The notes under the pieces: generated by a model
What the model was told of the DNA's origin: nothing
The model's input: only the letters and a program-made list of their open reading frames with translations
The model's database searches: none
Source: an uncultured Candidatus Saccharibacteria bacterium
Lineage (GTDB): Bacteria > Patescibacteriota > Minisyncoccia > Phycocordibacterales > UBA1006
Direction: 5' to 3'
Length of the DNA: 64,000 bases
Assembly (NCBI GenBank): GCA_964601935.1
Contig: CAZROP010000001.1
Span: forward strand, 185,867-249,866
Made by a program: the position numbers and the translations under genes
Shown here: in pieces, positions 3,579 to 63,438 of the stretch
How the letters are laid out: each line of letters begins with the position of its first letter
Numbering within the stretch: position 1 is the stretch's first letter

Positions 3579-3611
3579 ATTCTTGTTCCAAGCAGCAATA
3601 TAATACCAGCT

Positions 3612-16932: not shown

Positions 16933-17016
16933 ATATAATTCTATTGTATAGAGATTGATGCACTATTCAATCATGTCTGTGGATAGAGGTTCTAAGTTTC
17001 TTGGTTATACCAGAAT

Positions 17017-20325: not shown

Positions 20326-20423
20326 AAATTAATAGGTATATTATAGCTTGGATGTAGAATTTAAGTAATAAGGTTACCCTACATTCGTAGACACTCGGGT
20401 TTGCTTTTAATTATCACTACTTT

Positions 20424-20443
20424 TGCGGAGATGGCGGGATTCG
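20424..20443 (-). repeat. exact 20-nt duplicate of the tRNA-Ser 3' end
   Basis: tgcggagatggcgggattcg at 20424-20443 is identical to 20594-20613, which runs from the T-loop to the 3' end of tRNA-Ser plus 2 nt. Confidence 0.9.
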
Positions 20444-20595
20444 GTCACGCCGCATAGTCGCTCGATGCTCTCCTTCGATTCCTCAGGATCATATTCGCTC
20501 CTTGCAGCTCGACCCCTAATTCGAATCTGCCGTTTCCGTTTATCAAATATACTACAAATGCTCCTATGGGTCGCATTCATAGCATTTTGCTAATG

Positions 20596-20680
20596 CGGAG
20601 ATGGCGGGATTCGAACCCGCGAGGGGTTGCCCCCTGCTACCTTTCCAAGGTAGTGCACTCGACCACTATGCGACATCTCC
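20596..20680 (-). tRNA. tRNA-Ser (anticodon GGA), class II
   Basis: Minus-strand fold: acceptor ggagatg/catctcc, anticodon stem ctacc/ggtag with loop ttGGAaa, long variable arm, T arm gcggg-ttcgaat-cccgc. Confidence 0.9.
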
Positions 20681-20727: not shown

Positions 20728-23700
20728 TTACGCTGCTTCTTGTAATTCTTCTCTTCCTTGCTCATTCAATGGAACAACTTTTGTACCGCTAGTTCTTTTA
20801 CGAGATAAAAAGTCTTTGAAATCTCTACCATTTTTTATTCGATCGACATGACTCTTTATCTGTTCATTAGTAGTACTCATTGATTCTACAACTTCTGGAG
20901 TAGTACTATTCTCCCGACCACGAGCTCTTCTTGCCAGCTGAGCTTGTATTTGCTCTGTAGTAGGACTTTTATTTTCTCTTGGTTTAGCATTTTCTATCCT
21001 TCTGCTCTGCCAAGAAGCTGTGGCTCTTTTTAGTGCAGGAGTAACGAATGCAGTACTTTGAAGCTGACCCTCCTCTTCTTTAGGTTTATCAAACACGCCA
21101 TCCCAGAAACTATCCCATCTATGTTCCTGTGTAAGGGTTTGAGATTCTGCGACGGGGGCTACATTTGCTTCTATTACACTTGATGTAGCAGAGGTTTGAT
21201 TGGTTTCTTCACCTGCAATAGGGGTATCAAACCCAAAGAATGAGGAATCATAACTCTGATTAGTAGTATTATTAATCGTCTGAGAGTTATTATCTTCAGC
21301 TTGCAGCCTATTACCTTGATTAGTATTATTAAGCTGTTCTCTATTATTTTCACCATCTCGAGCAAGAGAACGATCTCTCTGTAGAGTCCGCCTCTCATCA
21401 TTATCAGGCGTACGGCCTGGTTCTTGGTCTGGGTGTTTTTCCTTGTAGTCATCTGTCGGCCCCATAAATCGCTGGGCATGTATAGGTTGCACATGTATAT
21501 CAGTATCATATACATTAGGTGCTTCGTAGTCTATATCAAGGATTGGTTGATTCGAAAAGTTCTCACCCTGTATACGAGCCAACGAGCGTACATTGTACGG
21601 CATAGTATCTGAACCATCTCCCTCTAATACTTCTACTGCCAGTATCTGCCCTTTCAATTCGAATTTTCCATCTTCAGTCACATGAAGGAATTCAGAGTTA
21701 ACACCAGTATTCGGAATAAATGCCTTACCATTTTTATCAAATTCTATAAATACAGCACCTTTGTTACCGATACTATCACTTGTTACTAATTTTTCGCTTC
21801 CCTCGTAGAGCATTAACTTTATTTTTCCTTTTCCTACCATTTCTTTTATTTGATCTCCTGTCAGTTTATTACTACCAAATGTTGACTCATCGTTAAACAT
21901 GTCTGCAATCGACATTTCGTATCCCTTCACATTTCCATCAGCATCCCATATTACACCTGATCCATTTGGTCCTCCCCATTTTAGATCCAATTCATTGCGC
22001 GCAAATTCTTTGGTATCATAATCATAATAATTGTCCATTCGAACAGATTTGAATTCAGCTGGACGCTCTGCTCCATTATAAGAATCAAAATATGAACCTG
22101 GGACAGGTGTCTCTGTTATCGTGAATCCTTTCCCTGCTAATGCTTTCTGTATATCGTCCTGACCTATTACACCATCACCTGCGGCATCTGGTATAGAAAT
22201 GTTTACGCCATTCGGTCCTGTTAGTGCAACACCATTTCCCTGCTGCTCCAGACAGAACCCATCCGGTAGACGCACATCTGCAGATACCTTGCCATCTATA
22301 CCCTGGATGATAGAACTGTGAGACATGGTAGTCGTGCCTCCGCCTGTTATCAGATTTTTTAACTGCATCAGGAGTGTTGCCTTTTTCTCGGAATCTCGTT
22401 CTGTGAACCAACTTTCTACCAAACCCATCGTAGAATCATCTATCAATGCCCATATTTCAGCAGTTGCAATACCGAATGCAAATGATAGTGCAAATACGGC
22501 TGAACCTGTTATCGCTGCCTCTTTTGCGAGCATTGATTTCACCCCCCTCTTATGTTTAGAAATACTTTCTATCAACTCCTTTCTAGTTTTTGAAATCTCA
22601 GGATTTTCACGTGCATTTTGTAGAGCATTATTAAATTCATTACCAAGTTCTTTTTTTAATCCTGCACGTAGACGTGCCATTAGAACAGCAATTTCACGAT
22701 GTTGTGCTTCTACCTGACCCGGATCATACTGAATTAATTCTACCTTTTTAATATTACCTGACTTTATAAGATCTTCATAACGGATCAATAATTCCAGTTT
22801 TGATTCTAGGGGATACTCCTGACCAGCACGTAATTCGCTGATAATAGATTGTGCTGGTTGCAAATCCATGCTAAATTTTTCAAACTTTGCAGCAACTTTA
22901 TCATTACTATAGGTTTCTCCTGCAGCAGTGTTCTGGTAATACTGCTGTGCCTCGGTGGTTCTACGATTATACTGCGCTGATCCTGCGAATGCTCCACCTA
23001 TAACTGAACCTACGACTGGCACAGCTAATGTTGCTTCTGCTGCCTTTTTCGAAACTATTTTTGCGACTGATGCCGCAGCACCCGCGAGGACAGCCAGCGT
23101 TGTTCCATTAAACACTCTTGTGACTTTTATTTTTTCACACCATCTACCAAATCTACCTTTGTATTTCGATGATAACGAATGTTCTGCAATCGCTATTTTC
23201 AGAGAAATATGAAGTTCGTTTATATATCTAGCTTTCTCATCAGCGCTCAAACCCTCAAATAGAGACTTGACTTCTCTGCAGACCACAAAGAAATTATGAG
23301 CAGTTATTGTTTCCTGACCACCTCCTTGGATTCTGCGTAGTGTATCGAGCTGCTGATTTACTAACTCCTGATACGTAATTGTTTGACCTGTGGGTACTTC
23401 TGATCTGAAACTATCGATATCTTCCTGAGATTTCAGAAATTCTATCAAAAATGTTCTGAGATTTTCTGATACCTGTGCCTGTCGAGTTTCATTATTATCT
23501 ACATTATAGACCTTTTCACCTGCGCTCAAGATACTATCGTCACCACTAATCACACGATCAGCTGCTGATTCGTACAGTGCACGTGTTCTTGCCTCGCCAT
23601 CATCCTCACCCAAAAACACATTACGCTGTTCTGCTGTTTCCCGTAGTGCAGCAACACGGTGTTTTGCCTGTCGATACTCATGAACTATTGCATTTTTAGC

Positions 23701-23871
23701 TCTTGTGAACTGTCGTGCGATCCAGTTCTTTTTTTCTGCTGACTGTTCCTGAGCCCCTAATCGTTCTGCTGCCAATTTACGAGCATACTGTCGTTGAATA
23801 TCAGTCACATCAGCAATACCTACATTAACTTCTGTAGGTATTTCTTCAAAACTTGTTTCTCTGAGCAACAT
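20728..23871 (-). CDS. giant membrane protein of unknown function (coiled-coil N-terminus, two Gly/Ala-rich TM anchors, extracytoplasmic domain, Q/N/T-rich tail)
   Basis: 1047-aa uninterrupted ORF. The TM segments are TLAVLAGAAASVAKIV...LAVPVVGSVIGGAFAGSA and ITGSAVFALSFAFGIATAEIWALI. Confidence 0.7.
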   Translation of the reverse strand: MLLRETSFEEIPTEVNVGIADVTDIQRQYARKLAAERLGAQEQSAEKKNWIARQFTRAKNAIVHEYRQAKHRVAALRETAEQRNVFLGEDDGEARTRALYESAADRVISGDDSILSAGEKVYNVDNNETRQAQVSENLRTFLIEFLKSQEDIDSFRSEVPTGQTITYQELVNQQLDTLRRIQGGGQETITAHNFFVVCREVKSLFEGLSADEKARYINELHISLKIAIAEHSLSSKYKGRFGRWCEKIKVTRVFNGTTLAVLAGAAASVAKIVSKKAAEATLAVPVVGSVIGGAFAGSAQYNRRTTEAQQYYQNTAAGETYSNDKVAAKFEKFSMDLQPAQSIISELRAGQEYPLESKLELLIRYEDLIKSGNIKKVELIQYDPGQVEAQHREIAVLMARLRAGLKKELGNEFNNALQNARENPEISKTRKELIESISKHKRGVKSMLAKEAAITGSAVFALSFAFGIATAEIWALIDDSTMGLVESWFTERDSEKKATLLMQLKNLITGGGTTTMSHSSIIQGIDGKVSADVRLPDGFCLEQQGNGVALTGPNGVNISIPDAAGDGVIGQDDIQKALAGKGFTITETPVPGSYFDSYNGAERPAEFKSVRMDNYYDYDTKEFARNELDLKWGGPNGSGVIWDADGNVKGYEMSIADMFNDESTFGSNKLTGDQIKEMVGKGKIKLMLYEGSEKLVTSDSIGNKGAVFIEFDKNGKAFIPNTGVNSEFLHVTEDGKFELKGQILAVEVLEGDGSDTMPYNVRSLARIQGENFSNQPILDIDYEAPNVYDTDIHVQPIHAQRFMGPTDDYKEKHPDQEPGRTPDNDERRTLQRDRSLARDGENNREQLNNTNQGNRLQAEDNNSQTINNTTNQSYDSSFFGFDTPIAGEETNQTSATSSVIEANVAPVAESQTLTQEHRWDSFWDGVFDKPKEEEGQLQSTAFVTPALKRATASWQSRRIENAKPRENKSPTTEQIQAQLARRARGRENSTTPEVVESMSTTNEQIKSHVDRIKNGRDFKDFLSRKRTSGTKVVPLNEQGREELQEAA

Positions 23872-33305: not shown

Positions 33306-33887
33306 AATAGTTATTGATAAAGATGGATTGTTAATAATAAAGTATCACATCGAGTGTAGAGAATTATGTCCTATACACTTCGATAGTACGAGTATACATG
33401 TCTATTACTAAGTAACGCAAAACAACTGTGTGGATAAAAGACATATTAATGTGGTAAAACAGGTGGATAGACTGAGTATAGTGTCTTTTATAATGTGCAG
33501 ATACTAGTGCACTAGTGTGGAGAGAGCTAATCCAAAGTTACTAGAAATATATTCAACTAATACTTTGTTGTCTTGGATGCTTTTTGGTTATGTCTTTTAA
33601 TATTCTGTCTTCACAGGTCCCGACCTGGGGTTATAAAAACAAGGAGTATAACGACTATGTTTTTCTATGCAAGGCCCAGGAATTAGAAAGATAGCAGGAC
33701 TTCGTAAGCGTATACCTCCCAGAATAAGCTTAAAGTGATAATATAGTCTCTATAGGCCCTCAAATAAATTCAGGGTGACAGATCAAAGTGATTTTTCCTT
33801 AAAAATATGTATCCTGGGATGACAAAGTAAAACCCCTGCCGTATAGAGAGGGGTTTTTAGATGAGAGCACGGTACGACAGAGGAACC

Positions 33888-36400: not shown

Positions 36401-36511
36401 TTATTAGATAAAGTATACGCATACTTTTCACTCCTGCGAGTAGTTTCTCCACAAACAAAAAACCACTGTCATGACGCAGTGGTTTTTGTAGATACTAACT
36501 AGATAAACCTA

Positions 36512-37012
36512 TTATGGACATTTCACAGTCGCAGGTGTTCCAGCAGCAGCAGCAATAGTTACTACACTGGATGAAGCAGCAATCTGTTTGTTGGATCCTG
36601 CTGAGTCAGCACACCATGCAGTACTACCTGCACCACTCTTCAATAATGTGACCGCAGCCCAAGAAACTGAGTTACTAGAACATGCAGTTGCCACTGTTGT
36701 TGATGTTGAAACGGCAGCACCTGCTGTACTTGCAGCTACTGTTGTCGCAGGTAAGTAGGCCTGTCCTGCTGCCAACACTCCATCATATGTCTTACTTGTA
36801 GTAGCACATACAGTTTGATAACCTGTTGTTGTTTCATCGTAAATAACTTCTGCCGAAGCTCTCACATTAGATATATTACCCTTGATCGCAGCATCAGCAC
36901 CTTTCACACGCGCACTGTTTACTGAACCAATCACTACTGTTGCAAGAACACCAATGATGGCAATAACCACGAGAAGCTCTATCAGAGTAAAACCTCGTAA
37001 TTTTATACTCAT
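36512..37012 (-). CDS. type IV pilin / pseudopilin-like protein (paralog 1)
   Basis: 166 aa with the class III signal MSIKLRG|FTLIELLVVIAIIGVLA. The C-terminal IAAAAGTPATVKCP is shared by all three paralogs. Confidence 0.9.
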   Translation of the reverse strand: MSIKLRGFTLIELLVVIAIIGVLATVVIGSVNSARVKGADAAIKGNISNVRASAEVIYDETTTGYQTVCATTSKTYDGVLAAGQAYLPATTVAASTAGAAVSTSTTVATACSSNSVSWAAVTLLKSGAGSTAWCADSAGSNKQIAASSSVVTIAAAAGTPATVKCP

Positions 37013-37069
37013 AGTATATTAAATTGTTAAGTTGATAATATGATAGAGAATTTACGTATTATTCTCTAT
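36783..37069. repeat. 287-bp perfect direct repeat (copy A) covering the pilin 5' coding region plus 57 nt upstream
   Basis: It is base-for-base identical to 37531-37817 by manual alignment. Confidence 0.9.
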
Positions 37070-37070
37070 C
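37042..37070 (-). promoter_or_regulatory. conserved palindrome upstream of each pilin gene (also at 37790-37817 and 38471-38497)
   Basis: (g)atagagaat-ttacgtatt-attctctat(c) lies 30-58 nt upstream of each pilin start codon. Confidence 0.5.
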
Positions 37071-37253
37071 ATGTAACAATCATATCAGTCATTACTAAGT
37101 TTTCATTATGAATAATTGGGTAAACTGTGGAGATCTAGTATGGGTATACGCACCAATTTAGTATGTGTGACATAGTGAGTACACTAGCTCTGGAAAATAC
37201 AAAGACCACTGTCGATTGACAGTGGTCTCGGTAAATACTAGTTATGTAACACA

Positions 37254-37760
37254 CTATGGACATTTCACAGTAGCTGGCGTCCCAGCTGCCGCGGCAATAG
37301 ATACTGTATAAGCTGTGGTCAGTGTAATCTGCTCATTAGACCCCGATGAATCAGCGCACCATGCTGTTAACCCTGCTGTTCCTCGTAGTGGTACCGCTGC
37401 AACCCAAGAAATCCCATTACTAACACATACACCCAGTGTTGTTGGTGCGCCAGTATTAGTTGCAGTACCGCTTGTATTGGCGGTTACTGTCGCGTCAGAT
37501 CTGTGTACCTTTGCTGCCGCTAATACCCCTTCATATGTCTTACTTGTAGTAGCACATACAGTTTGATAACCTGTTGTTGTTTCATCGTAAATAACTTCTG
37601 CCGAAGCTCTCACATTAGATATATTACCCTTGATCGCAGCATCAGCACCTTTCACACGCGCACTGTTTACTGAACCAATCACTACTGTTGCAAGAACACC
37701 AATGATGGCAATAACCACGAGAAGCTCTATCAGAGTAAAACCTCGTAATTTTATACTCAT
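37254..37760 (-). CDS. type IV pilin / pseudopilin-like protein (paralog 2)
   Basis: 168 aa. The first 76 residues are identical to paralog 1. Confidence 0.9.
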   Translation of the reverse strand: MSIKLRGFTLIELLVVIAIIGVLATVVIGSVNSARVKGADAAIKGNISNVRASAEVIYDETTTGYQTVCATTSKTYEGVLAAAKVHRSDATVTANTSGTATNTGAPTTLGVCVSNGISWVAAVPLRGTAGLTAWCADSSGSNEQITLTTAYTVSIAAAAGTPATVKCP

Positions 37761-37817
37761 AGTATATTAAATTGTTAAGTTGATAATATGATAGAGAATT
37801 TACGTATTATTCTCTAT
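37531..37817. repeat. 287-bp perfect direct repeat (copy B)
   Basis: It is identical to 36783-37069. Confidence 0.9.
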
Positions 37818-37933
37818 ATAGCTGTATAATAACAGACTTAATAACTGTTTATATTTAATTTTCTCGAACCCTGTGGAGATCTAGAACAATATAAAAACTA
37901 CTATCTGTCGATAGTAGTTTTTATTATTCATAC

Positions 37934-38431
37934 TTATGGACATTTCACGGTAGGAGGCGTCCCAGCTGCGGCGGCGATGGTTACACTACCAACAACGGCA
38001 GGTACTGATTTGTTAGACCCCGATGAATCAGCGCACCATGCAGTCGAATAGTTTGCTCCTTTGAGAGGAGAAACAGCAGCCCATGATACTCCATTACTAA
38101 CGCAAACAGCTAATATCCCTGATGCCGTATTTGCTGCTGCACCAGTTGTGTTGGATGCTACGGTTATAGTAGATCCGTGTACTTTCGCTGCGGCGAGAAC
38201 ACCTTCGTATCCTTTGCTGGTAGTAGCACATACACTCGTGTAATTACCTGTTTCATCATAAATAGTTTCTGCTGTAGTGCGTACATTCGATATATTCCCC
38301 TTGATAGCTGCGTCTGCTGCTTTTACTCTTGCACTGTTTACTGAACCAATCACTACTGTTGCAAGAACACCAATGATGGCAATAACCACGAGAAGCTCTA
38401 TCAGAGTAAAACCTCGTAATTTTATAATCAT
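37934..38431 (-). CDS. type IV pilin / pseudopilin-like protein (paralog 3)
   Basis: 165 aa with MIIKLRG|FTLIELLVVIAIIGVLATVVIGSVNSARVK. Confidence 0.9.
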   Translation of the reverse strand: MIIKLRGFTLIELLVVIAIIGVLATVVIGSVNSARVKAADAAIKGNISNVRTTAETIYDETGNYTSVCATTSKGYEGVLAAAKVHGSTITVASNTTGAAANTASGILAVCVSNGVSWAAVSPLKGANYSTAWCADSSGSNKSVPAVVGSVTIAAAAGTPPTVKCP

Positions 38432-38640
38432 ACGTTTCTAATATTACCATTGTTAAGTTTATAAAATCTGATAGAGAATTTACGTATTATTCTCTATATA
38501 TCTATGGTATCAGAATAATTCTGTGAAAGGCTGGATAGTATCTGTTAATTGTGGAGAATGTGAAATCTAGTTGTGAGTAGATTTATTGATACCTTACAAG
38601 AATTAATCTATTTTAGATTCTTGATTTGCTGATTAACTAT

Positions 38641-39011: not shown

Positions 39012-39992
39012 ATGCTATACTATAGCCATATTATAGTTATGTCAAGTCATGCTGCTTTGCGCCAATTCTTGGAACATTTAGAAATCGAACGTGGTCGATC
39101 CTCGCTCACTCTGCGTAACTATGAACATTATTTGACCACACTGTTCAATGTGATGAAGATCGAGTCTGTGGCTCAGATCGATGCAGATGTTATTCGCGAG
39201 TTTCGGTTGTGGTTGAATCGTCAGCCAGGCGCACGAGCACGAGGTCAGACAGATTCTCTGATGAAACGACGCACTCAAAATTACTACCTCATCGCTCTGC
39301 GATCATTCCTACGGTATGCGATGAAACGGGGTTGGACGCAGTTTGCTCCTGACAATATCGAACTCGCCCGTGTCGGTGATCGTCACATTGATATGATATC
39401 TGCTGATGAGCTTTCCAGAATAATGTCATCATTTGATACGACTACTCGTTCAGGTGTTCGGGACCGAGCTATACTCGAACTCCTCTACTCGACCGGATTG
39501 CGTGTATCAGAATTGGTGTCACTAAACTGTGACCTGGATCTATCCCGCGATGAACTGTCGATTCGCGGTAAGGGTGACAAGGTGCGACTCGTATTCGTTT
39601 CACCAGATGCTCGCATATGGTTGAAAAAATACCTCGGACTTCGTGCCGATGCACAGGATGCTCTGTTCGTCGATGAGCGTGCCAGCGCCGCAGAGTCATC
39701 GGATCGCGAGGCACGCCTAACGCCTCGATCTGTGGAACGTATTGTCGCCGCCGCCGCGGTACGTGCTGGTATCGGAAAGAAGGTGACCCCACATATCATT
39801 CGTCATTCGTTCGCGACAGGTCTATTGGAAAATGGCGCGGACATTCGTTCGGTGCAGACACTGCTCGGTCATGCGCATATCGGGACAACGCAGATCTACA
39901 CGCATGTCACTGACAAACATCTAAAAGATGTATTCAAAAAATTTCACAAACCGACAGATACCTCGGTTACAGAAAAAACCTCTGACACGTAG
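39012..39992 (+). CDS. xerC: tyrosine site-specific recombinase, XerC/XerD family
   Basis: It has an SSLTLRNYEHYL core-binding domain and catalytic motifs LLYSTGLRVSEL, HIIRHSFAT and LLGHAHIGTTQIYTHV. The start may be 39039 (MSSHAAL). Confidence 0.9.
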   Translation: MLYYSHIIVMSSHAALRQFLEHLEIERGRSSLTLRNYEHYLTTLFNVMKIESVAQIDADVIREFRLWLNRQPGARARGQTDSLMKRRTQNYYLIALRSFLRYAMKRGWTQFAPDNIELARVGDRHIDMISADELSRIMSSFDTTTRSGVRDRAILELLYSTGLRVSELVSLNCDLDLSRDELSIRGKGDKVRLVFVSPDARIWLKKYLGLRADAQDALFVDERASAAESSDREARLTPRSVERIVAAAAVRAGIGKKVTPHIIRHSFATGLLENGADIRSVQTLLGHAHIGTTQIYTHVTDKHLKDVFKKFHKPTDTSVTEKTSDT

Positions 39993-40300
39993 TCGGAGGT
40001 TTTTTGTTTCATTATCCCTTCTCTTTCCGTCATTCTGAGTTTATCTTAGAATCCACAAACTCTCACTCCCAGATTAAACTTATGTAATACTGCAACCTCT
40101 CTGGACCCTGAAATGAATTTATCATGCCCTATGGGTACAGGGTGACAGAGAGTGTAGTGATGAGCTATTCCAGTACACGTGTGTAACCCAATAAAACAAG
40201 CGTTACACTCGCCTATATAATCAGTGCAAATAAATAAGCCAACTACCCGAGGAGTAGTTGGCCGTAATAGTTATACTGGTTTTTCATTAGATTCTATTCC

Positions 40301-41839: not shown

Positions 41840-42742
41840 ATGAAATTTGTATCATGGAATGTGAACGGTCTGCGTGCCGTGACGAAAAAAGGATTCTTCC
41901 CCACCTACGTCGCGAGTGGAGAATATGATGTGATATTTCTAATGGAGACAAAATCAGAAATCGGTCAGCTATCTGATGAGGTAATATCGATTTCGGGATA
42001 CTCGTTCATGTTGCAGCCGAGTACCTACAAAAAAGGATACGCAGGTGTCGGCATGTATGTCCGCGATGGATTGTCGGCTGTGATCGAGACCGGATTTTCT
42101 CATGACTGTGCATTGCATGACGAGGAGCGCATTATGACTGTATCACTCGTACATCCTATTCACGGACGGATTGCGATCACAGGAGCATACTTCCCGAACG
42201 GTGCGCGCGGCAGTGTAAAGAGGGGTGGAGATGTAGAGACTAATAATCGAGTTTCTGATGAGTCAAACCCCCTCCCGACCTCCCCCTTTTCTAGTGGGAG
42301 GAGCTTGAAAACAGCTGCAGACTTCGGATCGAACCTGGAATACAAGCTGGCATTTTTTACCGAGTTTCAGAATCACATGGAGCACCTGGAGAAATCCCAT
42401 GATCATGTACTAGTTTGTGGTGACATCAATATTGCACACCACCCTATTGATCTGGCACGACCCGAGTCGAACAAAAATTCTGTAGGATTCTTGCCGGTCG
42501 AGCGTGCGCGACTAGATGCATGGCATAGCGATGGGTGGAGAGATATATGGCGAGAACTGCATAGCGATGAAGTGGTATACAGTTGGTGGGATGTTATCAG
42601 TGGTGCGCGTGCACGCAATGTTGGATGGCGTATTGATGCATGGTGGATGCGGCAGTCATCACTACCGATCATCGACGAGATCAGATACGATACAGAACAA
42701 ATGGGTTCGGATCATTGTCCTGTGGTGGTAATTCTGAAATAA
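41840..42742 (+). CDS. xth: exodeoxyribonuclease III (Xth/ExoA family) carrying a ~40-codon internal insertion
   Basis: It has an MKFVSWNVNGLRA start, LMETK, GDINIAH and GSDHCPVVV. The insertion lies between FPNG and LEYKL (nt 42212-42331). Confidence 0.9.
   Translation: MKFVSWNVNGLRAVTKKGFFPTYVASGEYDVIFLMETKSEIGQLSDEVISISGYSFMLQPSTYKKGYAGVGMYVRDGLSAVIETGFSHDCALHDEERIMTVSLVHPIHGRIAITGAYFPNGARGSVKRGGDVETNNRVSDESNPLPTSPFSSGRSLKTAADFGSNLEYKLAFFTEFQNHMEHLEKSHDHVLVCGDINIAHHPIDLARPESNKNSVGFLPVERARLDAWHSDGWRDIWRELHSDEVVYSWWDVISGARARNVGWRIDAWWMRQSSLPIIDEIRYDTEQMGSDHCPVVVILK
42264..42303 (+). repeat. solo copy of the DUF559-cassette terminal repeat inside the xth coding sequence
   Basis: caaaccccctcccgacctcccccttttctagtgggaggag matches caaaccccacctcaatcctcccctttgctaggggaggaa (57236-57275) at roughly three quarters of positions by eye. 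Confidence 0.6.
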
Positions 42743-50732: not shown

Positions 50733-52802
50733 ATGAGTGAACGCACGCCCGGAGAAGAAATCCTAGAAAACGCCGAGAATACTCCAGAAAGATTAATAAA
50801 TGCTCATATATTGAACGATATAGAGTTACAGTATGCATTACAGTTATTCCCTGTAGAAACTCTAGAATCTGTGCAAGAGAAAAGTCACGAAAAGATAGTA
50901 GATGAGCGAGTAACAATGCTGAACCGTTCGTGCATGTATGACGAGGTCAAGCCAGGAGAGGAGGGTATGCATCGACCAGAGCGTGCATATACTCCATTTT
51001 CGAAACTACGGTTCATAGCACCTCCTACTGAAGAGGTTGCAAATGAACTGCGATCACTGGGGGTGGTTCATGTGAAACAGTCTCTCGAGGCAACGAGACA
51101 GGCCCAAGATCTAGCACAATTTACCGAAATGGTCGAATGGTACGAAACACAAGAGCAGGCAAAACAGGAATGTTTAGAAGTTCTTCGTTCTTTACAAGAG
51201 AGCGCACAAGATGATTTACATGAGCTGGCTTTGCTCTTTCAGAAGATAGAGACTTCTTCTTCGGAGGCTGGTCACATGAATTACGAGCACGCGCAGAAAT
51301 GGGCGTACCAACTACTGATGGGAGGGCCTCTCACGAACAGTGTACAGTCGAGCGGAGGAGGACTGCGCGATACCTTCGAGGCATACATTTCTAATGTAGA
51401 GAACCTAAGGCAGCCGGCATACTACACCGATTTGTTGGTTGAAATACAAAATCACCAACGTGCTATAGAAATACTGAAGAGTTTGCCAGCGGCTACAGAC
51501 CCAGGATTGCAGGAGAAGTATAGAATCTGGCGGCAGATGAATACTCTTTTCAGAGGAGATGTAGAGGATAAGGTCTATACGTTCATGACCGAACAGGTAG
51601 GATATAATCAGACAAAACAGGGTATCCACATCCACAATCGTGTACCCAAAAGCTATCAACCTACACGTGGTCAGTATTCTCCTAAATACGGGTACAATGA
51701 TGCAAAGAATAAGCAACAAGAACTAATGCCTCGGGTGGAGCTTGCTCTGGAGAGCGCAACTCGATTCGTCGATACGACAGTCGCTCGTGCGCAGATGGAG
51801 TACGAAGTACTGCATCTGCCCGCGACAGAAACAAAATACGTTTCACCTGATGACGCGGCGAAGTATCTGAAACACGAGAAAGACAAGCGAGTAATAGAAG
51901 CACGAAAAGCAGCTGAGTTATTAGGTCGTAGACCAGAGACGTTTGCGCGGACTGTGGTTGATGCGGGGAACTTTACAGGAGAAGTCAGCTTTACTCTGAG
52001 GCCAAGAGATATGTTACCTGATATACATGCTGAGATACAAGAGCTAGAGAGACAAATCGTGGATTTGGGGATCGAGATAGGTAAATTGACGAAATCGGCT
52101 GATTCCATGAAAGATTCATTGGAAAAGGGTAGGGCGTATGATAGTTCGTCTAAACTTTATAAATTGGTTGTGTCACCTCCTATTGTTAACACAACCTGGA
52201 CTGAGCATGGCAACAAGCTTGATGATATAAAAAACTTAACATCAAAAAAGACAGACATAGAGCAAAATCTCGAGGTATTGCAAGCAGAATTAGAAACACA
52301 ATCACGACACCAATCTAATATATCGTTTGACTGGGAAAATGAGTGTATAAATATGATTACTAGAGGTGAATACCTGGGTTATGATATGAAACAGGGCGAA
52401 GTATCGGATATAGGGGCAGATTTTGATGTGGTGGCGTTCAAAAGATCACTATATAATCGTCTGTCTGGTGGTAGTAAGTCTATTTCAGAATTAGAACTGC
52501 GTAATTTGCAGAATGATATTGTTACATTCCTAGGCTTGGTATCCCGATGGGGGTTGTCGCCTGCAGAACAAACAGCATTAGACCATTATGATTCTGTGTT
52601 GCAGCGAGTCAGTAAAGGCGAATCGCGTACTCCAGAATGGTTACAGGGCGTGCCATTTGATGCGAAACAGGTGTACGAACATGCACTCGATGTTGTAATG
52701 CCTGCACAGGAAGCAGCTTTGGGTGTTGTAGATGGAAATGTATCTGTTGAAGTAGTGGCTGACGCGTATATGCGGTTGTACGGCGATAATAATGAAAAGT
52801 AA
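50733..52802 (+). CDS. large soluble hypothetical protein (coiled-coil-rich ORFan)
   Basis: 689-aa uninterrupted ORF with no TM segment and no recognised motif. It has its own terminator at 52825-52861. Confidence 0.55.
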   Translation: MSERTPGEEILENAENTPERLINAHILNDIELQYALQLFPVETLESVQEKSHEKIVDERVTMLNRSCMYDEVKPGEEGMHRPERAYTPFSKLRFIAPPTEEVANELRSLGVVHVKQSLEATRQAQDLAQFTEMVEWYETQEQAKQECLEVLRSLQESAQDDLHELALLFQKIETSSSEAGHMNYEHAQKWAYQLLMGGPLTNSVQSSGGGLRDTFEAYISNVENLRQPAYYTDLLVEIQNHQRAIEILKSLPAATDPGLQEKYRIWRQMNTLFRGDVEDKVYTFMTEQVGYNQTKQGIHIHNRVPKSYQPTRGQYSPKYGYNDAKNKQQELMPRVELALESATRFVDTTVARAQMEYEVLHLPATETKYVSPDDAAKYLKHEKDKRVIEARKAAELLGRRPETFARTVVDAGNFTGEVSFTLRPRDMLPDIHAEIQELERQIVDLGIEIGKLTKSADSMKDSLEKGRAYDSSSKLYKLVVSPPIVNTTWTEHGNKLDDIKNLTSKKTDIEQNLEVLQAELETQSRHQSNISFDWENECINMITRGEYLGYDMKQGEVSDIGADFDVVAFKRSLYNRLSGGSKSISELELRNLQNDIVTFLGLVSRWGLSPAEQTALDHYDSVLQRVSKGESRTPEWLQGVPFDAKQVYEHALDVVMPAQEAALGVVDGNVSVEVVADAYMRLYGDNNEK

Positions 52803-52824
52803 GTTTGCAGTCTTTAGCAAGACA

Positions 52825-52861
52825 GAACAAAACCCGCTGCCAAGGGCAGCGGGTTTTGTTC
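52825..52861 (+). terminator. intrinsic terminator after the 689-aa gene
   Basis: gaacaaaacccgctgcc / aag / ggcagcgggttttgttc forms a perfect 17-bp stem. Confidence 0.8.
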
Positions 52862-52968
52862 TACGTGAAACCTGTATCGGTGTCATAGTACAGTGGATAA
52901 TGCCTGAAATTACAAGCAATTGATTGATATACTGGGTTAGACATCGGTATGCGCCGATCTTGTAGTGT

Positions 52969-55047
52969 ATGACATCACCAGAAAATACTGTTCCACAAAG
53001 AGATCCGATTCCAGGTGTAGGACATCCGGACGGGCTTTTGCCTGAGGAACAGGATTGGTGGAACGCACTACAGCGAGAAAAAGCGTCTCTAGCGCAAAAT
53101 GAGGGTATGGTATTGTCGCCTGTGATAGCACAATCTTCGCGTAGTTGGGATTCAGTTCAGATCCCGAAAGGTCGTAGAGAAGGCGGGCGATCTGCATCTA
53201 CTCTCGAAACATTGCGAACCAAAGGGGTTCATTCAGGCTCTGCGCTGGAACAAAAGATCTTAAATTCAGTTAGCGCTCCTACGAGTCCTATTACCTGGGA
53301 AGCAGTTGTTGCGACAAGAGCTCGATTAACTCCTCGATTAGAACAGGCTTTGGCAGCAGCAGATCCGCACCTGGCGTATGTATACGAGAGGTCACTGTCT
53401 CGTTCAGCCGCGAATATTACCTCGAACGATACATCAGCACGAACTGCAAAAATCATACCAATAGGCCAACCTCTAGGGGTAAGTTTGCGTGAGGCGGCGC
53501 TTGTAGATGACCAGGATGGTATCGAGATGCCTCAGATGCAGATTGCTTCGGTAGCAGCATCTGCCGATGTACCCGATGTAGAAACAGTCGGCGAGCCTGT
53601 TGCACCAGCGGCAGTAGCACCAGAGGTACATTCTGATGAGCCTATTTCTCTGCAGGAATTGGTTGATAGGGTAAACAGAAATGTATCAACTGTACAGGAG
53701 TCTCTGGATCTTGCAATAGAGCCTGTTGCACCAGCAATAGAAGAAGACCATAACTGGGCAGAACAGGTGCATCTATCAACTGAACGGTATTCTAGTACAC
53801 TAGAATCTGCGTACAATGAAGCATATTTGAATCTTCATAGAGGGGCGCATTGCAGTTGGTTATCGAATTCTACACATAGAGAAACATTACTCAATCAGGA
53901 GTGTCAGATAGCGCGTCGTGAATTGGTACTGGCTCTCGTGAATCAACGCCGGCAGCAGAATAACGGCGTACTCAGTCGTGCTGACCTGATTCAGATAGAA
54001 CAGAGCGTGGTACAGCAAGAGCGTATCACATTGGATACTCTTGGACAGCAGTATGCGCAACACGCAGACATGCGCATGGTTCGTAATGTTCCAGAATTGG
54101 CAAATATTGCGCGTGCTCGCGGTGCAGCAGTGATGGAACGAGGCAGACAAGGTGTCACACGTGTAACAGGTATGTTGTCGAGATTATGGACTAGAACTGC
54201 AGGGCAGAGTGATACCGTACAGAGAGCACAAGAATCCATGACGGCACACAGTCGTCGCGTGCGCGGTTGGGTGGATAGGCGATTGGGATCAGAGCGAGTT
54301 GCACAGATGCAGCATGTAGCGGTGCGTATTGCTGTACCTACTGTATTTACCATTGCTACGGGTGGAGCACTGCTGCCGGTGATAGCAGGTGCAACAGTGG
54401 CTACGGCTACGGGTGCTGGTATTGATGCCGGATATCGTGCAGTCACTAGGTCGCAGAATCGTGCCGACCAGAGCATACCCATTGCTCCTGAAAATGTAGA
54501 CGCAATGTTAGTTGATGCGCAACAGGAAGCGGCAATTAGGAATCGGGAGCGACGTATTGCGCGCTGGGTGTCTACCATTACATCCTCTCTCGTGGGAATA
54601 GTAACAGGGCATTGGACAGCAGATGCGATGCAGGCTCACACTAATACGCCAACATCTGGGCCTGCACCGAAACCAACGCAGCCTATTATCGAAAAACCAC
54701 CCATCCCATTTATAGAACACACTGTTGCTATTCAAAATGGGTCAGGCGAAGGGTTTACTCAGGCGGTTAATCGCTTATTATCAGTGACGCCAACAGATCA
54801 AGTGCCAGCATTGATTACTGACTTCGCACGAGTACATAATGTACCTATCGTTAACGGTCATTATCAGATGACTCCAGAACAGGCGCGAGCGTTTGCCGAA
54901 CAGGTACGTGCAATCGATACATTCGGTCGTTCAATCATTATGCAGCCGGGTGATACAGTAGGATTCGATGCGGAAGGACAGCTGGTACATACACATGCAG
55001 GAGTGAGCCGCGCAGTAACAGGCGCATTACGCGGGAAATGGATGTAG
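52969..55047 (+). CDS. large membrane protein of unknown function (same architecture as the 1047-aa protein)
   Basis: 692 aa. It has RRVRGWVDRRL, a Gly/Ala-rich TM hairpin (IAVPTVFTIATGGALLPVIAGATVATATGAGIDAG), a second TM (WVSTITSSLVGIVTGHW) and a C-terminal domain. Confidence 0.65.
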   Translation: MTSPENTVPQRDPIPGVGHPDGLLPEEQDWWNALQREKASLAQNEGMVLSPVIAQSSRSWDSVQIPKGRREGGRSASTLETLRTKGVHSGSALEQKILNSVSAPTSPITWEAVVATRARLTPRLEQALAAADPHLAYVYERSLSRSAANITSNDTSARTAKIIPIGQPLGVSLREAALVDDQDGIEMPQMQIASVAASADVPDVETVGEPVAPAAVAPEVHSDEPISLQELVDRVNRNVSTVQESLDLAIEPVAPAIEEDHNWAEQVHLSTERYSSTLESAYNEAYLNLHRGAHCSWLSNSTHRETLLNQECQIARRELVLALVNQRRQQNNGVLSRADLIQIEQSVVQQERITLDTLGQQYAQHADMRMVRNVPELANIARARGAAVMERGRQGVTRVTGMLSRLWTRTAGQSDTVQRAQESMTAHSRRVRGWVDRRLGSERVAQMQHVAVRIAVPTVFTIATGGALLPVIAGATVATATGAGIDAGYRAVTRSQNRADQSIPIAPENVDAMLVDAQQEAAIRNRERRIARWVSTITSSLVGIVTGHWTADAMQAHTNTPTSGPAPKPTQPIIEKPPIPFIEHTVAIQNGSGEGFTQAVNRLLSVTPTDQVPALITDFARVHNVPIVNGHYQMTPEQARAFAEQVRAIDTFGRSIIMQPGDTVGFDAEGQLVHTHAGVSRAVTGALRGKWM

Positions 55048-56568: not shown

Positions 56569-56639
56569 GCGGTCATAGTTTATTGGTAAAACACGTCCTT
56601 GCCAAGGATGAGAGCGGAGTTCGATTCTCCGTGGCCGCA
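56569..56639 (+). tRNA. tRNA-Gly (anticodon GCC)
   Basis: Acceptor gcggtca/tggccgc, D stem gttt/aaac, anticodon stem cgtcc/ggatg with loop ttGCCaa, T arm cggag-ttcgatt-ctccg. A terminator hairpin follows at 56646-56685. Confidence 0.9.
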
Positions 56640-56796
56640 CAAATAACAAGAAAAAACGCGACCTCAGAAGCGTTTTTTCTTGTATATTTTGCGGAAACCA
56701 CCACGGAGAATTGAACCGGGGTCGCGAAATACTCTGCGAATATGGGCGTAAGCGAATACCGAGTATAGATATTTTGTTGGCCGCACACTGGTTCTG

Positions 56797-56836
56797 TTCC
56801 CTCCCCTCGCAAAGGGGAGAGTTAGGGTGGGGTTTG
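56797..56836. repeat. left terminal inverted repeat of the DUF559 cassette
   Basis: ttccctcccctcgcaaaggggagagttagggtggggtttg. Its reverse complement matches 57236-57275 at ~33 of 40 positions. It contains the internal hairpin ctcccct/aggggag. Confidence 0.75.
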
Positions 56837-56876: not shown

Positions 56877-57302
56877 ATGGCTATTTTTACGAAACAGAAC
56901 TCTGCCTATTTGGAAAAACGCAGGCACTTGCGAATCAATATGACTCCAGAAGAGCGTACACTTTGGTACTATCTAAAGCATCAGCAAACAGGATATAAAT
57001 GGCGCAGGCAATACAGTGTTGATAATTATATTGTTGACTTTGCTTGTATACAGCAACGTCTAATTATAGAGATTGACGGCGGGGATCATTTGATGAAGCA
57101 AGAATACGATGCAGTCCGCCAAGAGTATATTCAATCTTTAGGGTGGTGTGTACTCAGGTTTGGAAACAATGAAGTGCGAGAACAACTAGAAAGTGTTGTT
57201 AGTAGGATATACGAGTTATTGTATCAACTGTACGACCAAACCCCACCTCAATCCTCCCCTTTGCTAGGGGAGGAACCCCGAACACCGAAACCAGAAATAT
57301 AG
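56877..57302 (+). CDS. DUF559 (Vsr-like / PD-(D/E)xK) endonuclease-domain protein
   Basis: 141 aa with MTPEERTLWYYLK...YKWRRQYSVDNYIVDFACIQQRLIIEIDGGDH...GWCVLRFGNNEV. Confidence 0.85.
   Translation: MAIFTKQNSAYLEKRRHLRINMTPEERTLWYYLKHQQTGYKWRRQYSVDNYIVDFACIQQRLIIEIDGGDHLMKQEYDAVRQEYIQSLGWCVLRFGNNEVREQLESVVSRIYELLYQLYDQTPPQSSPLLGEEPRTPKPEI
57236..57275. repeat. right terminal inverted repeat of the DUF559 cassette (inside the ORF 3' end)
   Basis: ccaaaccccacctcaatcctcccctttgctaggggaggaa. Confidence 0.75.
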
Positions 57303-61209: not shown

Positions 61210-63438
61210 CTATTGGCGGACCTTGGTCTTATCGTTAGAACTCCTGCCTATTTCATGGATCCAATTGAGCATCCGTTGGCGGCGTGTGAGAGGTGCTTCT
61301 GCTAGTGTGTCAGGATTCTGGATCCGTTCTTGGATCCGTCGTTTCAGTGTTGTTAATGCAGCATTGTAGTCTTCTCCCTCATTCAACATTCGGAAGAATT
61401 CGATAAAATCATTCGGTTGTGCGTACTGAATGCCGTAACGGTCTCCTGCATCACGCTCGCTGTCCGTCGAGTTCTCCTGGGTCTGCTCTTTTATATTCTC
61501 GTAACCTCGGTTGGTTAGAATAGGTGCTAGTTCTTGTAGCACGAGCACTGACCACAGTTTTCTGTCAGAGAATGTCCGGTGCCAGGTTGTAATAGATAGA
61601 ACATAATTCAGCAGAGCACCCAAGAGCGCTTCTAATTGTTCAGCGGCCTTTGCTCTTGTCCAAAAGGAATTGTTGCAGGTAGTTGCAGGTAGGACCGTGA
61701 TACTCCTACTAGCTTCCAACTTTTCCGCAATATACTCCTCAATTCGGAATACCCACTGCTCGTGTTCCCAGAACCGATACTCTTTGAGCAACAGTATGAG
61801 CGTAGAGAGACTGGTAATTATAGAAATGATTCCTATCGTCATGCAGAAGTACATATACCAGGCAGGAACTTCTGTGTCAGACAGAACCCTCATCGCATAC
61901 TGAGTCACTAGGATGCTTCCAATGAATCCAATAAACACTATTCTTCTTACTTCATATACAAAATAGCGTCTTCCCATTCGGTGACTTTTGATCATAATCT
62001 GAGTAACCCATAATGTGGCGGCAGCCAGAATGATAATGATTGTTCCACTGGGAGACAGTATAAATCCGTGGACCAGTGCTATCGCCATGGTTGCTGCACA
62101 GGGAATGAATATGGTGACCAGTGCAATCATCGGGTCCTTCTTCCAGTTCACTAGTTTGTCTACACCCCGTGCTAGCATATAGGCAATGATTGTAGCAATG
62201 GTGAAGCTGATAACCCCAGGGATGCCAACGTCCATAGTCAGAACCAGACCTGTCCATACTGCAGGTGCTCCTACCAGCACCACTGTCAGGAGCATGATGC
62301 CGAGTACTGCGAAAGTGGCGCTAGCTAGGGCCCAGGCATGCGCCTTGGCCACTGTCCGTGCTGCTTTGCGTTCCTCATGCAGGTTGTAGTTCAATTCTGC
62401 AACTTCTATTAAGCAGGCTGCTGCACTTTCTGCTACAATTTCCCCGATATCATTTCTATTGAGCAATAGTTCTACCCACGCCGATAAATCAGCGCACTCT
62501 ATATACTGCAGTGTGTGAGAGCACTCATGCGAACTCAAAGCTGTCGCGATCTCCTCCAGTTTCTGGATTTCCTCGGTCGTGATAGTAGGCGCATACTTCT
62601 TCGTCAGGACTAATGCCCAATGGTTCCGTCCTTGGAAACGTTCATCGCAAGTTGCTATTCGGTAGAGGACTTGTGCAAGTTGCTTTACCGTTTCAACAGG
62701 TACGGTGCTCATCCTGTTCGTGTTCAGCCTGATTCTGTAGTGCGGCATAGTTAATGCCTCTGCCAGTTCGTACTTCATCTTGAGCATCCTTCGCCCTGGG
62801 AAAAACCCATGCTGGTTCAGCAGTCTTGTGGTTGCCCAGAGCGATGCTGCGCCAGCGAGATGCGCTAGGATTAGAATCCATATACCTATGCCACTCCCCT
62901 GGATACTACTGATCAATATAGCACCTGCAGATATCATGAGCATTAACATAGTGCATGCTACTATAAACCAATAGTAGTATTCCCCCAATCCGTAACGTTG
63001 TTTGCCATAGCGATGGATCGCTATGGCTGCAACGTAGGTCGCGATACCCATACCTGTTACAATCAGTCCTGCTCCAATCCAGGGCATAGTGTGCATCATG
63101 AACGTCAAGTCATGCATCCAGCCAGACTGGTAGGTATTCAGTAACGGTAGTACTATCCAGTGCCAGAGCAGGCTCAGGGCTGCGGTTACGTAGATCAGTT
63201 CTTGTACGTCCGTGACCCAGAATGGATCTTGGAATTTTACTTTGCGCTTCAGTCCGGCATAGCCGATACTGGCAATTGTTGCAGTAGTAATCGCAGCAGA
63301 TGCTGCGGACAGTCCTAATAGTCCCCATAGGAAAACTCCTATGATTGTCGCAATAATACCTGCGACAATTGCCAGTGCGATTGCAAACGCGCTGGCTGGA
63401 CTAGGACTGTCAATCATGGAGTCCATCAACTTCTTCAT
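61210..63438 (-). CDS. large polytopic membrane protein built from an internal duplication (TM bundle plus soluble domain, twice)
   Basis: 742-aa ORF. RNHWALVLTKKYAPTIT (aa ~271-287) matches RKLWSVLVLQELAPILT (aa ~626-642). QYIECADLSAWVELLLNRND matches QYAQPNDFIEFFRMLNEGED. Confidence 0.6.
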   Translation of the reverse strand: MKKLMDSMIDSPSPASAFAIALAIVAGIIATIIGVFLWGLLGLSAASAAITTATIASIGYAGLKRKVKFQDPFWVTDVQELIYVTAALSLLWHWIVLPLLNTYQSGWMHDLTFMMHTMPWIGAGLIVTGMGIATYVAAIAIHRYGKQRYGLGEYYYWFIVACTMLMLMISAGAILISSIQGSGIGIWILILAHLAGAASLWATTRLLNQHGFFPGRRMLKMKYELAEALTMPHYRIRLNTNRMSTVPVETVKQLAQVLYRIATCDERFQGRNHWALVLTKKYAPTITTEEIQKLEEIATALSSHECSHTLQYIECADLSAWVELLLNRNDIGEIVAESAAACLIEVAELNYNLHEERKAARTVAKAHAWALASATFAVLGIMLLTVVLVGAPAVWTGLVLTMDVGIPGVISFTIATIIAYMLARGVDKLVNWKKDPMIALVTIFIPCAATMAIALVHGFILSPSGTIIIILAAATLWVTQIMIKSHRMGRRYFVYEVRRIVFIGFIGSILVTQYAMRVLSDTEVPAWYMYFCMTIGIISIITSLSTLILLLKEYRFWEHEQWVFRIEEYIAEKLEASRSITVLPATTCNNSFWTRAKAAEQLEALLGALLNYVLSITTWHRTFSDRKLWSVLVLQELAPILTNRGYENIKEQTQENSTDSERDAGDRYGIQYAQPNDFIEFFRMLNEGEDYNAALTTLKRRIQERIQNPDTLAEAPLTRRQRMLNWIHEIGRSSNDKTKVRQ

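What the first reader, a model, noticed from the sequence alone, without database searches (positions are those of the whole stretch)
42212..42331. In-frame 40-codon insertion in exonuclease III that contains a solo copy of the DUF559-cassette repeat
Xth/ExoA-family enzymes normally have only ~8-12 residues between the (Y/F)xPN(G/S) strand and the LxYKL/YRL helix. Here 45 residues intervene: GARGSVKRGGDVETNNRVSDESNPLPTSPFSSGRSLKTAADFGSN.

The extra ~120 nt (42212-42331) includes caaaccccctcccgacctcccccttttctagtgggaggag (42264-42303). This resembles the right arm of the DUF559 cassette at about three quarters of positions, in the same orientation. The reading frame is preserved with no stop codon, and all catalytic motifs either side are intact.

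This looks like a repeat-element insertion into an essential-type repair gene that is tolerated as a surface loop.
Basis: partly seen in the sequence, partly recalled or inferred. Interest (0 to 1): 0.55.

Follow-up and report, generated by a model that had tools for sequence, protein, structure and literature searches.

The report
Palindromic repeat remnant inside exonuclease III
A DNA-repair gene of an uncultured Patescibacteria bacterium carries, in frame, the decayed half of a small hairpin-forming repeat; the same repeat flanks a DUF559 nuclease gene 15 kb away and sits in frame inside core genes in several bacterial phyla.

Summary
Window 42212-42331 is a 40-codon, stop-free extra segment in an otherwise intact Xth/ExoIII gene. 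Positions 42264-42303 match the right arm of the DUF559 cassette (57237-57276) at 32 of 42 aligned columns. One of 5000 shuffles scores as well, and a profile built without this copy gives E = 3e-6.

It is not a fresh solo insertion. Every close Xth relative (61-80% identity) has extra sequence at this site. Two of them (L001, L002) still hold both arms of a long hairpin element in frame. In the window the left arm has been deleted.

AlphaFold2 predicts an intact nuclease core, with residues 125-147 of the insert disordered. The site is the loop that follows the equivalent of APE1 Arg177.

The arm motif occurs in many bacterial phyla and is enriched next to DUF559 genes. It lies in frame inside recognisable MutS, UvrB, Mfd, AcrB, CusA, CusB, NuoG, AroA and HsdR genes, and inside XerC of a relative.

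The closest known phenomenon is the Rickettsia palindromic elements. I found no description of this repeat family or of its link to DUF559. Mobilisation by DUF559 is inferred, not shown.

The parts
41840..42742 (+). Xth/ExoIII-family AP endonuclease gene. ATG at 41840 gives MKF...; an upstream ATG at 41813 is also open.
   Evidence: PF03372. 39 invariant columns are kept. AF2 pLDDT 89.9 and pTM 0.87. Foldseek TM 0.92 to Mth212.
42212..42331 (+). 40-codon in-frame extra segment, residues S125-S164, absent from ordinary Xth proteins.
   Evidence: Residues 125-147 have pLDDT below 50.
42248..42263 (+). Pre-arm segment CGAGTTTCTGATGAGT ('RVS..'). It is shared with L001, L002 and L006 upstream of their left arm. 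The left arm itself is missing here.
   Evidence: Alignment A5; insert DNAs.
42264..42303 (+). Right arm of the palindromic element: CAAACCCC + CTCCCGA + small hairpin (CCTCCC 42279-42284 / GGGAGG 42296-42301).
   Evidence: It is 88% identical to the L001 right arm, 82% to a typical Gallionella arm and 76% to the cassette arm.
42304..42318 (+). Post-arm segment CTTGAAAACAGCTGC. It corresponds to CCCGAA(A/C)(G)ACC, which follows the right arm in L001, L002 and the window's DUF559 cassette.
   Evidence: Alignment A4.
56800..56836 (+). Left arm of the DUF559 cassette.
56877..57302 (+). DUF559 (Vsr/EDxHD-like nuclease) gene. Its 3' end runs through the right arm.
   Evidence: PF04480, E 5.5e-35. 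A DUF559 profile hits 3HRL, and I-Bth0305I (3R3P) at E 0.0037.
57237..57276 (+). Right arm of the DUF559 cassette.

Best explanation
The extra 120 nt is the in-frame, partly decayed remnant of a small two-armed palindromic element. The element's layout is: outer GTTTC.. segment, left hairpin arm ending in GGGGTTTG, a spacer of about 45 nt, right arm starting CAAACCCC with its own hairpin, then an outer ..GAAAC segment. It belongs to the same repeat family whose arms flank the DUF559 nuclease gene at 56.8-57.3 kb.

An element of this kind occupied the loop after the PNGARG strand of Xth in an ancestor of this Patescibacteria lineage, or it re-entered that site repeatedly. Five of the six reading frames of a typical arm are free of stop codons. 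Copies whose length is a multiple of three therefore survive selection on the host gene.

In the window's lineage the left arm was deleted. This destroyed the long hairpin and left a 'solo' right arm. The segment is translated as a largely disordered excursion next to the DNA-binding face, and the nuclease stays intact.

Shown: the homology of the insert to the arms, its position, frame preservation, the intact catalytic core and the predicted disorder.

Inferred: translation in vivo, retained enzyme activity, and the process that keeps the arms close to the family consensus. That process could be gene conversion, re-insertion or homing, possibly driven by DUF559.
For: 1. Arm similarity is significant.
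2. L001 has both arms plus a 45-nt spacer in frame. It folds at -73 kcal/mol, z = -8.1. L002 has abutting arms, z = -4.5. The window insert is not significantly structured, z = -1.6.
3. The alignments show a clean loss of the left arm in the window. They also show similarity to the cassette extending about 12 nt past the right arm.
4. The outgroup L007 has only a 16-aa loop without arms.
5. The AF2 core is confident, residues 125-147 have pLDDT below 50, and TM to Mth212 is 0.92.
6. The same behaviour is seen elsewhere. Arms or doublets lie in frame in recognisable HsdR, AcrB, CusA, CusB, Mfd, AroA, UvrB, NuoG and MutS genes.
7. There is a clean presence/absence case. XerC of L003 has a 38-codon palindromic insert that the window and L005 orthologues lack.
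8. Four-fold degenerate sites between Xth orthologues are saturated (identity 0.22-0.46). The window arm is nevertheless 88% identical to the L001 arm and 82% to a typical Gallionella arm.
Against: - No transcript or protein data exist.
- No target-site duplication could be defined.
- Only three arms occur in the 64 kb, so mobility in this genome is not demonstrated.
- The conserved flanks SxKRGGD and (R/K)T(A/S)(A/S)DF may be an older host loop rather than element sequence.
- P0002 (80% identical) has a 31-aa insert with no recognisable arm.
- Arm loop variants differ between loci but agree within each locus: TTTTCTA in L001, TTGCCAA in L002, TATTAG in L003. Simple vertical decay of one ancient copy does not explain this.
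Confidence: 0.8

Rival explanations
1. Recurrent, site-specific re-colonisation. Each lineage acquired, or re-converted, its Xth copy from its own resident DUF559-type element. The site would be a hotspot or homing site, not a single ancient relic.
For: - The two arms agree within each locus but differ between loci, including the inner-end subfamily. L002 has GGGGAT/ATCCCC, as in the DUF559 cassettes L155 and L176. The window and L001 have GGGGTTTG/CAAACCCC.
- The arms are far better conserved than saturated synonymous sites.
- DUF559 is related to the EDxHD homing endonuclease I-Bth0305I.
Against: - The same boundaries and shared pre- and post-arm segments in all lineages fit one ancestral event followed by conversion.
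- The resident elements of the relatives' genomes could not be examined.
- No cleavage or target data exist.
Confidence: 0.4
2. Exaptation. The enlarged loop is now functional, for example by modulating DNA binding or partner interaction of the AP endonuclease, and is retained for that reason.
For: - The insert follows the Arg177-equivalent residue of the major-groove loop. Query L166 aligns with APE1 L182.
- The flanks SxKRGGD and (R/K)T(A/S)(A/S)DF are conserved at protein level although synonymous sites are saturated.
- The C-terminal flank is modelled with pLDDT 80-94.
Against: - The centre of the loop varies in length from 16 to 76 residues and in sequence. It is read in different frames and is predicted disordered.
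- P0002 lacks the arm altogether.
Confidence: 0.2
3. An ordinary lineage-specific loop whose resemblance to the cassette arm is a compositional accident.
For: The segment is C-rich and of low complexity, and all close relatives have a long loop here.
Against: - Shuffle and profile statistics.
- Relatives carry both arms as a near-perfect hairpin at the same place.
- The similarity is at DNA level, in different reading frames.
Confidence: 0.02
4. The gene is a pseudogene or the insert is an assembly artefact.
For: None found.
Against: - The frame is open and all invariant residues are kept.
- An identical protein comes from an independent assembly.
- The gene order XerC-MFS-Xth is the same in relatives.
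Confidence: 0.03

Closest known systems
Rickettsia palindromic elements (RPEs; Ogata et al. 2000, 2002, as summarised in PMC10969869)
   Same: Both are short palindromic repeats inserted in frame into unrelated housekeeping genes. Both encode a peptide that is compatible with the host protein's fold. Both are found in many genes.
   Different: - The sequence is unrelated to RPE families; I saw no similarity, and a formal comparison was not run.
- The arms are about 40 nt, against RPEs of about 100-150 bp.
- This family is not confined to one genus. It occurs in Patescibacteria, Proteobacteria, Omnitrophota, Chloroflexi and others.
- It is linked to a nuclease gene (DUF559).
REPIN / RAYT systems (PMC3116915, PMC3337134)
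   Same: Hairpin repeats occur as inverted doublets. A small gene is flanked by the repeats in inverted orientation. Most copies lack a gene.
   Different: - The associated protein is a Vsr/PD-(D/E)xK-like DUF559 nuclease, not an IS200/IS605-type tyrosine (HUH) transposase.
- Copies are often intragenic.
- The repeat consensus is nearly the same across phyla instead of lineage-specific.
Bacterial MITEs (review PMC10969869)
   Same: Small size, inverted-repeat ends, no transposase of their own, and occasional in-frame fusions with host ORFs.
   Different: No target-site duplication could be identified, and no cognate IS or transposase is known.
EDxHD homing endonucleases (I-Bth0305I, PDB 3R3P; PMC3239194)
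   Same: The DUF559 profile matches the I-Bth0305I catalytic domain over nearly its full length (E 0.0037), and both share the Vsr-like fold family. Free-standing members exist.
   Different: - DUF559 proteins here are single-domain (about 120 aa) without NUMOD/HTH DNA-binding modules.
- They are not inside introns or inteins.
- Homing has not been shown.
Mth212 / ExoIII / APE1 AP endonucleases
   Same: The host protein has the same fold and the same catalytic residues.
   Different: It has 41 residues where Mth212 has 3, directly after the Arg177-equivalent residue of the major-groove loop.

Membership tests
Xth/ExoIII (EEP superfamily, PF03372) - host gene | Pfam Exo_endo_phos match above the gathering score | tested here: met
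   68.7 bits against a cut-off of 24.5.
Xth/ExoIII (EEP superfamily, PF03372) - host gene | Conserved catalytic and metal-binding residues (N, E, D-x-N, D, D-H) | tested here: met
   All 39 invariant columns of 50 homologues are present, including N7, N9, E36, N120, D195, N197, D266, D291 and H292.
Xth/ExoIII (EEP superfamily, PF03372) - host gene | Four-layer alpha/beta sandwich fold | tested here: met
   AF2 pTM 0.87. Foldseek gives TM 0.92 (normalised to the target) with Mth212 and ExoA.
Xth/ExoIII (EEP superfamily, PF03372) - host gene | AP-endonuclease / 3'-exonuclease activity | not testable with these tools
   Needs an enzyme assay.
RPE-like protein-coding palindromic elements | Repeated palindromic DNA present at many loci | tested here: met
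The window holds only 3 arms.
RPE-like protein-coding palindromic elements | Inserted in frame in otherwise intact genes of unrelated function | tested here: met
   Xth, XerC, MutS, UvrB, Mfd, AcrB, CusA, CusB, NuoG, AroA and HsdR.
RPE-like protein-coding palindromic elements | The insert lies in a loop and leaves the fold intact | tested here: met
   Tested for Xth only. The core is confident and the insert has pLDDT below 50. This is a prediction, not a structure.
RPE-like protein-coding palindromic elements | Sequence membership in a described RPE family | not tested
   No RPE sequences were available for comparison. The motif looks unrelated, so I claim 'works like' only.
RPE-like protein-coding palindromic elements | The insert is retained in the mRNA and translated | not testable with these tools
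   No expression data.
MITE | Terminal inverted repeats and small size | tested here: met
   Left and right arms in L001, L002 and the cassette.
MITE | Target-site duplication | tested here: inconclusive
   The filled and empty XerC sites show no clear duplication.
MITE | Related autonomous element that encodes a transposase | tested here: not met
   The only associated gene is DUF559, a nuclease fold.
REPIN/RAYT | Associated IS200/IS605-like tyrosine transposase flanked by the repeats | tested here: not met
   The flanked gene is DUF559.
REPIN/RAYT | Inverted doublets of a hairpin repeat | tested here: met
   Right-to-left and left-spacer-right doublets are common.
EDxHD/Vsr-like homing endonuclease (for the DUF559 partner) | Sequence relationship to the I-Bth0305I catalytic domain | tested here: met
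   Weak but full-length: profile A3 against 3R3P, E 0.0037.
EDxHD/Vsr-like homing endonuclease (for the DUF559 partner) | Cleaves the empty allele and is copied into it | not testable with these tools
   Needs biochemistry or genetics.

The most novel reading that the evidence does not exclude
The Xth insert is one trace of an undescribed mobile-element system found across bacterial phyla. In this system the single-domain DUF559 (Vsr/EDxHD-like) nucleases play the part that RAYTs play for REPINs. They would maintain and spread hairpin or T-shaped palindromic repeats that colonise protein-coding genes in frame. They would also keep those repeats close to one cross-phylum consensus by nuclease-driven conversion (homing). 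This would give the large DUF559 family a function.
Probability: 0.35. Interest if true: 0.8.

Novelty: new variant of a known kind. Interest (0 to 1): 0.62.

Why it matters
[quoted passage not shown] Here the same behaviour appears in a Patescibacteria lineage and, for the same repeat motif, in repair, efflux and respiratory genes of several other phyla.

The repeat is enriched next to DUF559 genes. DUF559 is a very large family with no assigned role, so this gives a concrete, testable hypothesis for what it does.

For annotation, the arms explain many odd Pro/Gly/Ser-rich loops and spurious small ORFs.

For enzymology, the insert sits in the DNA-intercalating loop region of an AP endonuclease. 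That is a natural experiment on how much that loop can tolerate.

Tried and rejected
- Rfam. The doublets, L001 and the whole window gave only sub-threshold hairpin-like hits to miRNA and snoRNA families, plus the tRNAs. No family fits.
- Literature. 25 papers in the library mention DUF559 and none concerns repeats. The motif string gave no hit. Searches on in-frame palindromes returned only the RPE work.
- Exact look-ups of the window's Xth (P0001) and DUF559 proteins found no record, so no assembly accession was obtained.
- A plasmid search with a Gallionella doublet found 7 records, all unannotated.
- A covariation test of the arm hairpin was dropped. The arms had been collected with a sequence profile and the stem is nearly invariant (CCTCCCC/GGGGAGG), so the test would have been biased and uninformative.
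- Target-site duplication or a target motif could not be resolved from the XerC filled and empty sites or from the flanks.
- Intron or intein reading: rejected. The insert is 120 nt, has no splicing motifs, and relatives vary in length.
- Chance similarity and assembly artefact: rejected.

Full report
**1. What is at the coordinates**

The ORF 41813/41840-42742 (+) is an Exo_endo_phos protein (PF03372). Between the strand ending YFPNGARG and the helix starting NLEYKL there are 40 codons, 42212-42331, with no stop. Typical Xth proteins of about 255 aa have only a few residues there. For Mth212, the best solved relative, HMMER splits the match into residues 1-123 and 165-296, and Mth212 has three residues in the gap. 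All 39 invariant columns of a 50-sequence alignment are present. An independent Logan assembly encodes the identical 309-aa product.

**2. Is the similarity to the DUF559 cassette real?**

The cassette consists of a left arm at 56800-56836, a DUF559 ORF at 56877-57302 (PF04480) and a right arm at 57237-57273.

- The Xth 40-mer 42264-42303 aligns with the right arm in the same orientation at 32 of 42 columns.
- Its local score of 34 is the best in the window outside the cassette; the next unrelated block scores 23-24.
- One of 5000 dinucleotide-preserving shuffles reaches that score.
- An nhmmer profile built from six other arms, without this copy, finds 42264-42304 at E 3.2e-6. Its only other hits in the window are on the two cassette arms.

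**3. Relatives settle the origin**

Only seven close relatives exist among 5.8 billion proteins, and all are longer than normal Xth. I fetched their DNA and cut out the inserts.

- L001 (P0003) has, in frame, a left arm (CTTCCTCCCCTAGAAAAGGGGAGGATTGAGGAGGGGTTTG), a 45-nt spacer and a right arm (CAAACCCCTCCCTGCCCTCCCCTTTTCTAGGGGAGGAG). Together they form a hairpin of -73 kcal/mol, z = -8.1.
- L002 (P0004) has two abutting arms, z = -4.5.
- L003 and L006 have decayed arms.
- L005 (80% identical) and the outgroup L007 have no recognisable arms. L007 has only a 16-aa loop.
- The alignments show that the window lacks the left arm through a clean deletion after the shared CGAGTTTC ('RVS') segment.
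- Similarity to the window's cassette continues about 12 nt past the right arm, as CCCGAAC(A/G)ACC.

The window's insert no longer folds significantly (z = -1.6). The 'solo' arm is therefore what remains of a two-armed element.

**4. Age and maintenance**

PNPase places the genome in Patescibacteria. The best named hits are Nomurabacteria and Paceibacteria at about 51% identity. The relatives' PNPases are 67-69% identical.

Four-fold degenerate sites between Xth orthologues are saturated, with identity 0.22-0.46. Yet the window arm is 88% identical to the L001 right arm and 82% to a typical Gallionella arm. The L001 left arm is 93% identical to the window's cassette arm.

Arm loop variants agree within a locus and differ between loci: TTTTCTA in L001, TTGCCAA in L002, TATTAG in L003. 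L002 belongs to the GGGGAT/ATCCCC subfamily that is also seen in the unrelated DUF559 cassettes L155 and L176.

Passive decay of one ancient copy does not explain these patterns. Some active process must operate: conversion from other copies, re-insertion, quasipalindrome correction, or DNA-level selection. Which one cannot be decided here.

**5. Effect on the protein**

AlphaFold2 gives mean pLDDT 89.9 and pTM 0.87. Residues 125-147 fall below 50, and the C-terminal flank of the insert reaches 80-94. Foldseek gives TM 0.92, normalised to the target, with Mth212 and ExoA.

Query L166 aligns with APE1 L182. From my own knowledge of the APE1 sequence (YVPNAGRGLVRLEY), window N120 and R123 then correspond to APE1 N174 and R177. 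R177 sits on the loop that enters the DNA major groove opposite M270 (PMC7367167). The insert therefore follows directly after the Arg177-equivalent residue, at the edge of the DNA-binding face.

The flanks SxKRGGD and (R/K)T(A/S)(A/S)DF are conserved across the lineage. Part of the enlarged loop may thus be under selection.

**6. The repeat family**

The pattern CAAACCCC-N6-9-CTCCCC-N5-9-GGGGAGG gave 21 viral contigs. The hits include Gallionella, Sideroxydans, Zoogloeaceae, Omnitrophota, Patescibacteria, Anaerolineae, Geobacter, Cellvibrio, Leptospiraceae and Bacteroidota.

The commonest layout is a right-to-left doublet, with an outer stem and two inner hairpins. Left-spacer-right doublets, as in L001, also occur.

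No Rfam family fits. No paper in the library links DUF559 to repeats.

**7. Link to DUF559**

- Six of the 120 loci contain a DUF559 gene. In all six it lies within about 220 nt of an arm, and in four it directly abuts arms. In L131 it is flanked by doublets on both sides.
- I also sampled 80 DUF559 loci from metagenomes, ascertained by protein motif alone. Arm hits occur at 0.82 per kb within 200 nt of the gene and 0.09 per kb elsewhere. 22 of the 80 genes have an arm nearby. Several show the same left-gene-right layout as the window.
- A DUF559 profile matches PDB 3HRL. Next best is 3R3P, the catalytic domain of the EDxHD homing endonuclease I-Bth0305I, at E 0.0037.

A nuclease-repeat partnership is thus plausible, either REPIN/RAYT-like or homing of the gene into left-right doublets. 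It is not demonstrated.

**8. Other coding copies**

- 28 of 127 arms lie in ORFs that extend at least 60 codons on both sides.
- Pfam confirmed nine of these as recognisable genes with the arm or doublet in frame: HsdR, AcrB, a CusA-type transporter (with a full doublet), CusB, Mfd, AroA-Cmk, UvrB, NuoG and MutS.
- Five of the six frames of a typical arm are stop-free, as read directly from the sequence. This explains the tolerance.
- In the same lineage, XerC of L003 has a 38-codon palindromic insert that the window and L005 orthologues lack. This is a clean presence/absence case.

**9. Comparison with known systems**

The phenomenon matches the Rickettsia palindromic elements, which are in-frame palindromes in housekeeping genes (PMC10969869). 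I claim that it works like an RPE, not that it belongs to an RPE family.

It shares the doublets and the flanked gene with REPIN/RAYT systems, but the gene is not a tyrosine transposase. It shares inverted-repeat ends with MITEs, but no target-site duplication or transposase was found.

**10. Verdict**

- Observation: confirmed.
The insert is inherited and two-armed in origin. The left arm was deleted. The site is next to the DNA-binding loop. The arms are kept near a consensus shared across phyla.
- The Xth case on its own is a new example of a known kind of event.
- The repeat family and its DUF559 link look undescribed and are the more interesting lead.

Noticed in passing
L030-L149 (genome-contig hits), e.g. 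L135:4831-4915, L148, L131:4869-5417: The arm motif is found in many bacterial phyla. It usually occurs as an 80-90 nt right-to-left doublet with an outer stem and two inner hairpins (T-shaped). Some MAGs (Gallionella, Sideroxydans, Omnitrophota) hold many copies. The consensus is more than 80% identical between Patescibacteria and Betaproteobacteria, and I have no explanation for that.
   Followed up: partly
L131:4984-5352, L108:230-550, L133:3926-4285, L155, L176, L178, L216, L166: DUF559 genes from unrelated organisms sit between a left and a right arm, or between doublets. Arm density is about 9-fold higher within 200 nt of DUF559 genes than elsewhere in the same loci.
   Followed up: partly
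L003:3946-4059 (within XerC-like gene 3283-4314): A 38-codon in-frame palindromic insert (left-spacer-right type, stem CCCTCTCC/GGAGAGGG) is present in the XerC-like recombinase. The orthologues at window 39012-39992 and L005 5080-5997 lack it.
   Followed up: yes
L110:5151-7946 (MutS), L149:6304-7998 (UvrB): Besides the arm, these genes carry further odd in-frame segments, such as SPPLPNPLPRGEREL and RPELVEGRAISPSPVHPSTSPLVLSGVEGSGRTEN in MutS and GRARPLSGSLLCEGERDVEPSPPQRRGQGEV in UvrB. They look like other repeat families.
   Followed up: no
L003:13561-14007, 16380-16976, 20218-20601: Other small ORFs are bracketed by inverted repeats. Two are GIY-YIG genes of about 95 aa, and one 85-aa ORF lies between 48-nt arms that are 98% complementary. 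Small genes bracketed by inverted repeats (two of them GIY-YIG nuclease genes) seem common in this lineage.
   Followed up: no
window 56569-56800: The DUF559 cassette lies just downstream of tRNA-Gly (56569-56640) and a terminator-like hairpin (56635-56694). The stretch 56693-56770 looks to me like a degraded tRNA-like fragment on the minus strand; this is my own reading of the sequence and no tool called it.
   Followed up: no
window 36460-38540: Three tandem units of about 745 nt (67-92% identical in the 300-nt core) lie downstream of the PNPase gene. They are probably tandem paralogous genes.
   Followed up: no
window 2599-2647, 33747-33782, 40088-40136: A different repeated hairpin (ACCCTGAAATAAATTCAGGGT core) occurs at three places. 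It is unrelated to the DUF559 arms and may be a terminator or another small repeat family.
   Followed up: no
window 20424-20450 vs 20594-20620: There is a 27-nt copy (89% identical) of the 3' end of tRNA-Ser (20595-20680, minus strand) 170 nt away. It may be an integration scar.
   Followed up: no
window 15011-16270; 20728-23871; 50733-55047; 61210-63438: The genome context looks typical of Patescibacteria. ProRS is short (419 aa), and several very large ORFs (689-1047 aa) match no NCBIfam family.
   Followed up: partly
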